64,000 nt of DNA. It comes from Escherichia coli 042. GTDB lineage: Bacteria > Pseudomonadota > Gammaproteobacteria > Enterobacterales > Enterobacteriaceae. The position numbers were made by a program. The stretch is from the NCBI RefSeq assembly GCF_000027125.1, contig NC_017626.1; one strand, 5' to 3'. This document shows positions 54,301-57,300 of this stretch, piece after piece (the stretch's first letter is position 1; each line of letters begins with the position of its first letter).

Positions 54301-57300
54301 CCTGGTAACGGGCGTCATCAAGTGCATTATGGCGCTCACCTTCGAATGGAATAGCCGTTCTGGCATCGAAGTCTATGGCTTTCCCCAGCTCAACGATTGT
54401 GCGTACATCGCGATCGTTGTAGTAACGCCACGGGCAGGGGATCCCCTGCCGTTCGTATGAACGGCGCAAAATCGTGTTGTCGAAGTTGGCTCCATTTCCC
54501 CAGACCTGAACAAAAAATTCGCCGGAGTTTTCGTCGATAAATTCCCGCAATTGCAGCAGTGCATCATCTAACGGGATTTCATCGGTCAGAATGGCAGATT
54601 GCGCCTCCCGTGATTGCTTAAGCCACCATTTAATGGTGCCACGATCAATGACTCCGCCAGCAGTATCCATATCGATGGTCTTACTAAATTCCGGCCCCAT
54701 ATCTCCGGTTTGCGGATCGAAAAATATTGCACCTATTGAGATAAGCGGGGCATCGGGATTTTTTCCCATGGTTTCAAGGTCGATCATCATGTGGTGCCAC
54801 ATTCTGCTGGTGGATGTGATAACGTGATGACCGTTCATCGCAATTAAGGGATCTGCCGTCTCGCCAGTTTCACTATCGCTGGCGTGATCCTGAGCGCTAC
54901 CAGCATTCTCCTTGTGTGGATGTTCAGCGCCTTCCATTTCCTTCGGATCATTTTCCTGAACTTCAACCTGATTCTCTTCATCGAATGTTTCCTGGTATGT
55001 TGCGTCACCCATCACCGCGCCACAATCAGGGCAGTTGCCGCCACCGCTTTGACCGCAGGCGGTGCAGACTTTTTCCGGTTCCTGTTGCGCTACTGGCTCA
55101 GGTTGTTTCGTTTCTGGCTCGTTTTGTTGCGTATTTGGGCTGTTTTGTTCCGCTTTCTGGTCGTTCTGTTCCGATTCTTGCTGGTTCTGGTTTACAGAAT
55201 CGTGGGTTTCAATCCCCTTTACCCATTTCGGATCATTCGGGTCGCTAATCCCTGCAACAAATTCTCCGCGAGAGGCAGCAAGCAACTTATCGGCGTCAGG
55301 CTGGCTGATATTGGCTGCCTGCATAATTTTGTTTACTTCGTCAGCGGTAACTTTTACCGGCTCTGGTTGTGCGGTCGTGTCAGATGCACCAGTATTTTGT
55401 TGTGAACCTGAGTACGTGCCGTTTTTACGTGCGAAGTATTCCTCTTTTGTGATTTCCGTAGCTCCCAAGGCTAGTGCTTTTTCCAGACCAGAAAGTTTGT
55501 TTGCGCGACCGTATTTTTCGCCATCCTTGTCGGTGAAGAGGAAGTAGAACGGCCCCTCACGCTCTACAGATGGTTCGACTTCCACTTTGCATTCGGTTTT
55601 TTCGTTGCCCGGAATTGCCGTTTCCACTGCATCAGTTTCTGGTACTGGCGACGAGAGAGTATCAGTTGCGCTCTGATTTCTTCCTTCATCTTCAAACACG
55701 CCCTTTGTAGTCAGGTATTCAGTAATGTATTTGTTCAGTGCCACAGGGTCTTTGTGAATGTCGATCGGACGTTCACGGACAAGGACAAAAATAGTCTGGC
55801 GGTCGTAGCGAAGGGCATCAGGCTGTTTGCGCATTGATGCCGAGATACGCTTCCAGTCTTCGCGGTCGTTGTCGATAACTTCATTTTTTGCCCAGCGATG
55901 GATGCTGCCGTCAATGTTTCCGGCATCCACATCACCAGGCCAGAGAGCGTAGGCCAGTTCGTCATCCAGTGTTTTCCATGTCTGCTTGTATTCGCGATGA
56001 ATGGCAGCAATGACCGGGCTGATTTTTCCTGTTGAATTTTCAGTGTGCTGTTGATTGGTTCTGGCGCGGGCGAGATCAACAACAGACGTGTATTTTCCGG
56101 TTTCCTTGCGTTCACCTTCGCGACGTTTTTTCCAGATGCGCATCTCTGCCTGAATTTCGGGCCATTTGGCACCAGGCTTACATTTATGCTTAACCCACCC
56201 GATGGCATGCAGCTTAAGCTCCGGATACATGGCGTTAACTTCTGGCATTTTCATCAACGCTTCAACGATATGTCCGTCGAATGTTGCCATGTCTTCCTGC
56301 AACAATTCCTGTGCGCTAATAACCATATCAACGGTGATGTTTTCACATGTGTCGAACTTAACCATGACAGCGTTCTGTACTTCAGGGGCCAGCTTGTCAA
56401 AAGTGACGTTCATCGGATCTGATTCAGTCTCAACCGGGACAAAGGAAGCAGATTCCTCATCCCAGCGGTTTTCCTGCATATATTCAGCATCCCAGGAATC
56501 GAGGGCAGGGCGGGGTATACCGGGTTTATCCTCGCAGACAAGAAATTTATAAGCGCAGTCCTGAGCAGCCGGATAATGTTCCAGGAATTGCCAGTGAAAT
56601 TTTGCGCGGGCGCGACGTTCATCACCGGCTTCAATGGCAGTGGCTACAGCGACGGCACCTTCTTCCTTTATTGCCTGTTCGTCCGGAATGGCGGCGCAAA
56701 TAAAGACTTTACTCATTTTGTTTTACCTCATTACAGATTTAAGGGTGAACAAATCCCTGCCATTGCTGGCATATAAAAATGAAACTGGATATTAATTACG
56801 GCGCTGTTTTTAATCCTGCCGGGATTTCGTTATTGTCCATGTGAATAACTTTATCGACCGGATAACAGTTGCCGGGAATTTTCTGTTCCGCTGCGGCAGC
56901 CATGCATTCTTTCATTGAGTTGTACATGCCGGTGATTGCATCAAGCGACTCACCAGTATTGAGATGTACAGTCAGAATGAGTACGAATAATGTGTTCATC
57001 GCCACTCTCCGAAAATACCGAGTTTAAGAAGGGCAATTCTGGAGAGTATGGAATTGTCATTCAGCAGGTAGGGTTCATATTTTCTCATATTGATTGCATC
57101 CTCGGTGAAATCCCTGTTACTGAGCAGAACACCAATATTAAAGCACCCGTCAGACGTATTAACGTTTGGTAGTGACGTTTCCATTATCGCGTCCTCAACA
57201 ATGAATTTTTAGCAATTGCTCCACAGTCATATTTTTAATTGCGCTCCGGTTTACAAGAGTCCATCCTTGTTTCTCCAGATAAAACCGGAAGGTATCCAGG

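What the first reader, a model, noticed from the sequence alone, without database searches (positions are those of the whole stretch)
56796..57184. YdfD-like small hydrophobic-N-terminus protein translationally coupled to DicB-like
The 67-aa ORF downstream of dicB starts at an ATG overlapping the dicB-like TGA (ATGA), which suggests coupled translation. Its N-terminus (MNTLFVLILTVHL) looks like a signal or membrane anchor, which would fit a lysis-type or membrane-targeting small protein co-expressed with the division inhibitor.
Basis: partly seen in the sequence, partly recalled or inferred. Interest (0 to 1): 0.3.

Follow-up and report, generated by a model that had tools for sequence, protein, structure and literature searches.

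The report
Known prophage dicB–ydfD gene pair
This is an ordinary copy of the known E. coli prophage gene pair dicB–ydfD (a cell-division inhibitor followed by a small lysis protein), and its water-repelling start looks more like part of the protein's fold than an export signal or membrane anchor.

Summary
A 62-aa DicB gene (57184..56996) is followed by a 67-aa ORF (56999..56796) whose ATG overlaps the dicB TGA as ATGA.

The 67-aa protein is a clear YdfD homologue. It scores 69.8 bits against Pfam DUF1482 (cut-off 25) and is 67% identical over all 63 residues of K-12 Qin YdfD, which RefSeq names "lysis protein". Identical loci are annotated in many E. coli genomes. The same stop/start contact with dicB occurs in all 83 sequences examined, and in isolated phages.

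Published work on K-12 YdfD shows rapid lysis that depends on cell division. Co-expressed DicB cancels it, and it has been attributed to IspG inhibition. So "YdfD-like, lysis-type, co-expressed with DicB" is supported and already known.

True translational coupling fits the geometry but is unproven. ydfD has its own Shine-Dalgarno sequence. A hairpin predicted to mask it is weak and specific to this allele.

The "signal peptide or membrane anchor" reading is poorly supported:
- There is no basic residue before the hydrophobic run.
- The run is only about 10 residues long.
- The motif is conserved at sequence level.
- AlphaFold models it as strand 1 of a β-β-α-β domain.

Novelty: already known. 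Interest is low.

The parts
56996..57184 (-). dicB-like CDS, 62 aa (cell-division inhibitor DicB)
   Evidence: Pfam PF05358 E=1.3e-32 over 60 of 62 positions. NCBIfam NF049927 103.4 bits against a cut-off of 100. 64% identity to K-12 DicB. RefSeq annotation in identical loci.
56796..56999 (-). ydfD-like CDS, 67 aa plus stop (DUF1482 family; homologue of the Qin lysis protein YdfD)
   Evidence: Pfam PF07358 69.8 bits against a cut-off of 25. PHROG 1092 E=1e-35. 67% identity over 63 of 63 residues of K-12 YdfD b1576, 'lysis protein'. Purifying selection. Invariant C32 and C45 retained.
56996..56999 (-). ATGA stop/start overlap of dicB and ydfD
   Evidence: Read directly from the sequence. The same or near-identical junction is present in all 83 sequences examined, in K-12 and in PPompW phages as GTGA.
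57005..57010 (-). Shine-Dalgarno-like GGAGAG for ydfD, inside the 3' end of dicB, 5 nt before the ATG
   Evidence: Read from the sequence. K-12-type junctions carry AAGGA at a similar distance.
57003..57048 (-). Predicted mRNA hairpin within dicB that pairs the ydfD SD (weak, allele-specific)
   Evidence: MFE -16.9 kcal/mol, z=-2.34, 3 of 200 shuffles as good. SD unpaired probability about 0. Partly kept in one related allele, absent in the PPompW and K-12 types.
57192..57196 (-). Shine-Dalgarno-like GAGGA for dicB, overlapping the stop codon (57197-57195) of the upstream Rha-family gene
   Evidence: Read from the sequence. The stretch TGTTGAGGACGCGATAATG is identical in K-12, where no Rha gene precedes dicB.
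57195..57752 (-). Rha-family regulator or antirepressor gene (185 aa from ATG 57752; RefSeq uses the longer 284-aa ORF from 58049), ending 10 nt before dicB
   Evidence: Pfam Phage_pRha E=5e-31 and TIGR02681. PHROG 995.
54245..56716 (-). Downstream 823-aa exonuclease gene (full-length counterpart of the K-12 pseudogene ydfE), 79 nt after ydfD
   Evidence: Pfam Rv2179c-like 3'-5' exonuclease domain E=4.8e-66. RefSeq 'exonuclease'. Same order as in K-12 and phage mEp460.
58238..58289 (-). DicF sRNA gene upstream in the same operon
   Evidence: Rfam RF00039 71.5 bits against a gathering score of 48.
59929..59958 (-). Candidate operon promoter (dicBp / PL equivalent) between the repressor-like gene (60071-60532, -) and ydfA (59662-59817, -)
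   Evidence: Consensus scan, 10 of 12 matches. The position matches K-12 dicA-dicBp-ydfA (PMC10448788). This is a consensus match only.

Best explanation
The 67-aa ORF is an allele of ydfD. It is the second gene of the conserved dicB-ydfD pair in the early-left operon (dicBp / PL-type) of a lambdoid prophage, integrated next to ompW in an E. coli chromosome.

Shown here: its identity, gene order, the stop/start overlap, purifying selection, and the conservation of the pair.

Inferred from published K-12 work: the operon is silent under the prophage repressor and is transcribed as one long mRNA on derepression. In this window that mRNA would run ydfABC - DicF - isrK/C4 - rha - dicB - ydfD - exonuclease - xis - int. 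YdfD made on its own causes rapid lysis that depends on cell division, reportedly by binding IspG and starving the cell of isoprenoid (undecaprenyl-phosphate) precursors. DicB blocks division through MinC/FtsZ and cancels that lysis.

My inference: placing the ydfD start on the dicB stop, with the SD inside dicB, keeps YdfD synthesis tied to ribosomes that have just made DicB. The lytic protein would then not be produced without its masking partner.

The hydrophobic N-terminus is most likely beta-strand 1 of a small beta-beta-alpha-beta domain. That region carries the reported IspG-binding activity. It is less likely to be a cleaved signal peptide or a transmembrane helix.
For: - Identity.
- Existing annotation of identical DNA in at least 18 complete genomes, and homologous DNA in 4319 of 5426 E. 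coli genomes; gene tables.
- Pair and junction conserved in all 83 sequences. Also in isolated phages mEp460, Tritos and vB_EcoS-689R5, where it is annotated 'putative YdfD family protein | cell division inhibition protein', and in a divergent PPompW allele with a GTGA overlap.
- Selection: pN/pS 0.2-0.37.
- Operon context: DicF, ydfA/B/C, repressor-like gene and candidate promoter.
- Function of the K-12 orthologue: PMC8835842 reports lysis, IspG pull-down, SEC, ITC Kd of 18 uM, FRET, and rescue by ispG or HMBPP. It also cites Masuda 2016 for DicB and SulA cancelling lysis. PMC10448788 describes the dicBF operon, with YdfD as a lysis protein. PMC9782134 confirms toxicity.
- N-terminus as a strand.
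Against: - No experiment exists on this 67-aa allele. It differs from K-12 YdfD at 21 of 63 positions and carries a 4-residue tail (KTAP). In K-12, even single-residue changes at either end abolished killing (PMC8835842). The 67-aa form is nevertheless the commoner one in databases.
- The IspG mechanism rests on one paper, without enzyme kinetics.
- Coupling is not demonstrated. ydfD has its own SD, and the SD-masking hairpin is weak and not conserved.
- The AlphaFold model is only moderately confident (mean pLDDT 77.9, 20-sequence alignment). No structural neighbour reaches significance.
- As I recall it (the paper is not held), Masuda et al. described the first 22 residues as a hydrophobic domain and proposed membrane association.
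Confidence: 0.85

Rival explanations
1. The N-terminal hydrophobic stretch is a membrane anchor, or at least drives membrane association. YdfD would act at the inner membrane, as the first reader suggested and as the original 2016 description of YdfD proposed (my recollection of that paper).
For: - The hydrophobic run L4-L13 has an 11-residue KD mean of 2.39. K-12 YdfD reaches a 19-residue mean of 2.00, above the classical 1.6 threshold.
- The lysis phenotype concerns the envelope (PMC8835842).
- PMC9782134 calls YdfD a 'membrane lysis protein'.
Against: - In this allele the 19-residue mean is 1.30. The run is interrupted by H12 and followed by N-T-G-E-S-L-D.
- The family member YebW has only about 10 hydrophobic residues before D-G-G.
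- Sequence-level conservation of FALVLTV is atypical for anchors.
- AlphaFold gives a confident beta-hairpin.
- Tagged full-length YdfD was purified as a soluble complex with cytoplasmic IspG (PMC8835842).
Confidence: 0.2
2. The N-terminus is a cleavable Sec signal peptide. The mature protein of about 50 aa would be a periplasmic mini-protein with a disulfide bond between the two invariant cysteines.
For: - The h-region length of about 10 residues suits a signal peptide. Small residues (T15, G16) could precede a cleavage site.
- Two invariant cysteines, plus a second Cys pair that co-occurs in distant members, would fit an oxidising compartment.
Against: - There is no positively charged n-region in 116 of 139 family sequences. 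YebW has no n-region at all.
- N at -3 is a poor fit to the -3/-1 rule.
- The extra Cys pair straddles the putative cleavage site (positions 12 and 18). That only makes sense if the segment is retained.
- The reported target, IspG, is cytoplasmic, and residues 1-28 are the part that binds it. Cys mutants still bind (PMC8835842).
Confidence: 0.07
3. The ATGA overlap is only compact phage gene packing. ydfD is translated independently from its own SD, with no functional dependence on dicB translation.
For: - A strong SD, GGAGAG, lies at optimal spacing. K-12-type junctions also carry AAGGA.
- 26 of 83 junctions are not overlapping but have a 2-nt spacer.
- No significant local structure is found in the K-12-type junctions.
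- 4-nt overlaps are very common in operons (general knowledge).
Against: - The stop lies within 5 nt of the start in every sequence, including divergent alleles and distant family members that have unrelated upstream ORFs.
- In this allele the SD is predicted to be fully paired inside dicB.
- There is a functional rationale: DicB neutralises YdfD (PMC8835842, citing Masuda 2016).
Confidence: 0.4

Closest known systems
YdfD (b1576) of the E. coli K-12 Qin cryptic prophage, Pfam DUF1482
   Same: 67% identity over the full 63 residues. Same invariant cysteines. Same position immediately after dicB with an ATGA overlap. Same operon layout: ydfABC-dicF-dicB-ydfD-ydfE/exonuclease.
   Different: It differs at 21 of 63 positions, mostly in residues 17-28 (pN about equal to pS there). 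A 4-residue C-terminal tail, KTAP, arises from a 1-nt indel. The N-terminus is less hydrophobic, with H12 and N14. The host prophage sits at ompW, carries an rha/C4/isrK insert before dicB, and has an intact exonuclease, xis and int.
YebW (b1837), the second DUF1482 protein of E. coli K-12
   Same: Same family and the same predicted layout. The FALVL motif and the two core cysteines are present.
   Different: Only 30% identity. It has an extra Cys pair and no residues before the hydrophobic motif. It is not next to dicB and lies in a non-prophage context, yebV-yebW-pphA. Its function is unknown.
Single-gene lysis proteins ('protein antibiotics'): phiX174 E (MraY), Qbeta A2 (MurA), phage M LysM (MurJ)
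   Same: Works in a similar way. A small phage protein causes lysis that depends on growth and division, by blocking supply of a cell-wall precursor rather than degrading the wall (comparison made in PMC8835842).
   Different: There is no sequence relationship. Those proteins are the sole lysis device of small ssDNA or ssRNA phages. ydfD sits in the early operon of a tailed lambdoid phage that has its own late lysis cassette. Its lysis is masked by the co-expressed DicB, so lysis may not be its natural role.
Lambda Kil and P1 Icd: early-operon division inhibitors of temperate phages
   Same: The same genomic niche, in an early operon controlled by the repressor, and the same logic as the DicB half of the pair.
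   Different: They are analogues of DicB, not of YdfD. No YdfD-like partner is known to me for lambda kil (own knowledge, not tested).

Membership tests
YdfD / DUF1482 (PF07358) | Match to the family HMM above the curated threshold over the full length | tested here: met
   69.8 bits against a cut-off of 25, profile positions 1-57 of 57. PHROG 1092 positions 1-63 of 63.
YdfD / DUF1482 (PF07358) | Close similarity to the characterised member, K-12 YdfD | tested here: met
   42 of 63 residues identical, no gaps, E=1e-32.
YdfD / DUF1482 (PF07358) | Conserved core residues: two cysteines, L7, V8, G16, P47 | tested here: met
   All are present in the window protein (alignment A1).
YdfD / DUF1482 (PF07358) | Gene immediately downstream of dicB in the dicBF-type operon | tested here: met
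YdfD / DUF1482 (PF07358) | Lysis on expression, suppressed by DicB or SulA; binding to IspG | not testable with these tools
   Known only for the K-12 protein (PMC8835842, and Masuda 2016 as cited there).
DicB (PF05358 / NF049927), the upstream partner | HMM match above curated thresholds | tested here: met
   Pfam 111.7 bits against 27. NCBIfam 103.4 bits against 100.
Translationally coupled gene pair | Same-strand stop/start overlap or contact | tested here: met
   ATGA at 56999-56996. Conserved in all 83 sequences as a 4-nt overlap or a 2-nt spacer.
Translationally coupled gene pair | The downstream start is inaccessible unless the upstream gene is translated (SD absent or sequestered) | tested here: inconclusive
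   An SD is present. A predicted hairpin masks it (z=-2.34), but the hairpin is not conserved in other junction types.
Translationally coupled gene pair | Downstream expression falls when upstream translation is blocked | not testable with these tools
   Needs reporter fusions.
Sec-type cleavable signal peptide | Positively charged n-region before the hydrophobic core | tested here: not met
   No K/R in residues 1-16. No K/R before the motif in 116 of 139 family sequences.
Sec-type cleavable signal peptide | Hydrophobic h-region of about 7-15 residues followed by a -3/-1 small-residue cleavage site | tested here: inconclusive
   The h-region is about 10 residues, which fits. N14-T15-G16 gives N at -3, a poor fit. 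No SignalP-type tool was available.
Single-pass transmembrane anchor | Uninterrupted hydrophobic helix of about 18 residues or more | tested here: not met
   The best 19-residue KD mean is 1.30 and includes H, N, G, E and D. The segment is modelled as a beta-strand with pLDDT 81-86. No dedicated TM predictor was run.
Holin | At least one TM domain and a location in the late lysis cassette with an endolysin | tested here: not met
   The gene lies in the early-left operon between dicB and the exonuclease. There is no convincing TM segment.

The most novel reading that the evidence does not exclude
The hydrophobic N-terminus of DUF1482 proteins is neither a signal nor an anchor. It is strand 1 of a soluble beta-beta-alpha-beta mini-domain.

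In addition, DUF1482 genes are always placed in stop/start contact with a preceding small ORF in phage early operons. That ORF is DicB in Escherichia and unrelated proteins of unknown function in distant members. Under this reading the family is a 'masked toxin', whose synthesis is tied to a partner that neutralises it. Its natural role would then be host metabolic takeover, such as throttling isoprenoid or undecaprenyl-phosphate supply, rather than lysis.
Probability: 0.3. Interest if true: 0.35.

Novelty: already known. Interest (0 to 1): 0.1.

Why it matters
It matters little for discovery. The gene pair, its overlap, the lytic activity of YdfD and its masking by DicB are all published for K-12 Qin, and this locus is already annotated in RefSeq.

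Three modest points come from this check:
- The 67-aa form, not K-12's 63-aa form, is the common allele.
- The stop/start contact is conserved across all alleles examined. It also holds where the upstream partner is not DicB.
- Sequence conservation and modelling argue that the hydrophobic N-terminus is a structural beta-strand rather than a targeting signal. This bears on the unresolved question of where YdfD acts: on cytoplasmic IspG or at the membrane.

Tried and rejected
- Fold searches of the AlphaFold model. PDB gave nothing with E<=0.001 and a best of 1.5. BFVD gave a best of 8.8e-3, all uncharacterised small phage proteins. One annotated DUF1482 protein appeared at rank 26, with rmsd 1.8 over 48 columns. 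The afdb50 library was unavailable.
- A profile search of PDB sequences gave no hit at E<=1, so no family member has a solved structure.
- Masuda et al. 2016 (FEMS Microbiol Lett 363:fnw039; PMC5975272) is not held. Its results are cited through PMC8835842, and where stated, from my recollection.
- Literature searches for 'DUF1482' and for ydfD with dicB and transmembrane found no papers.
- I tested the SD-masking hairpin as evidence for coupling. It is marginal in this allele and absent in the K-12, L032 and PPompW junctions. I do not rely on it.
- I looked for a C4/isrK-type RNA in front of K-12 dicB. None was found, only DicF and a sub-threshold STnc100 match.
- I asked whether the small ORFs upstream of distant DUF1482 genes are DicB relatives. 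Pfam and PHROGs say no.
- Antisense ORFs on the + strand (56869-57027, 56990-57172) and a weak + strand promoter-like site at 57054-57083 have no support. I treated them as noise.
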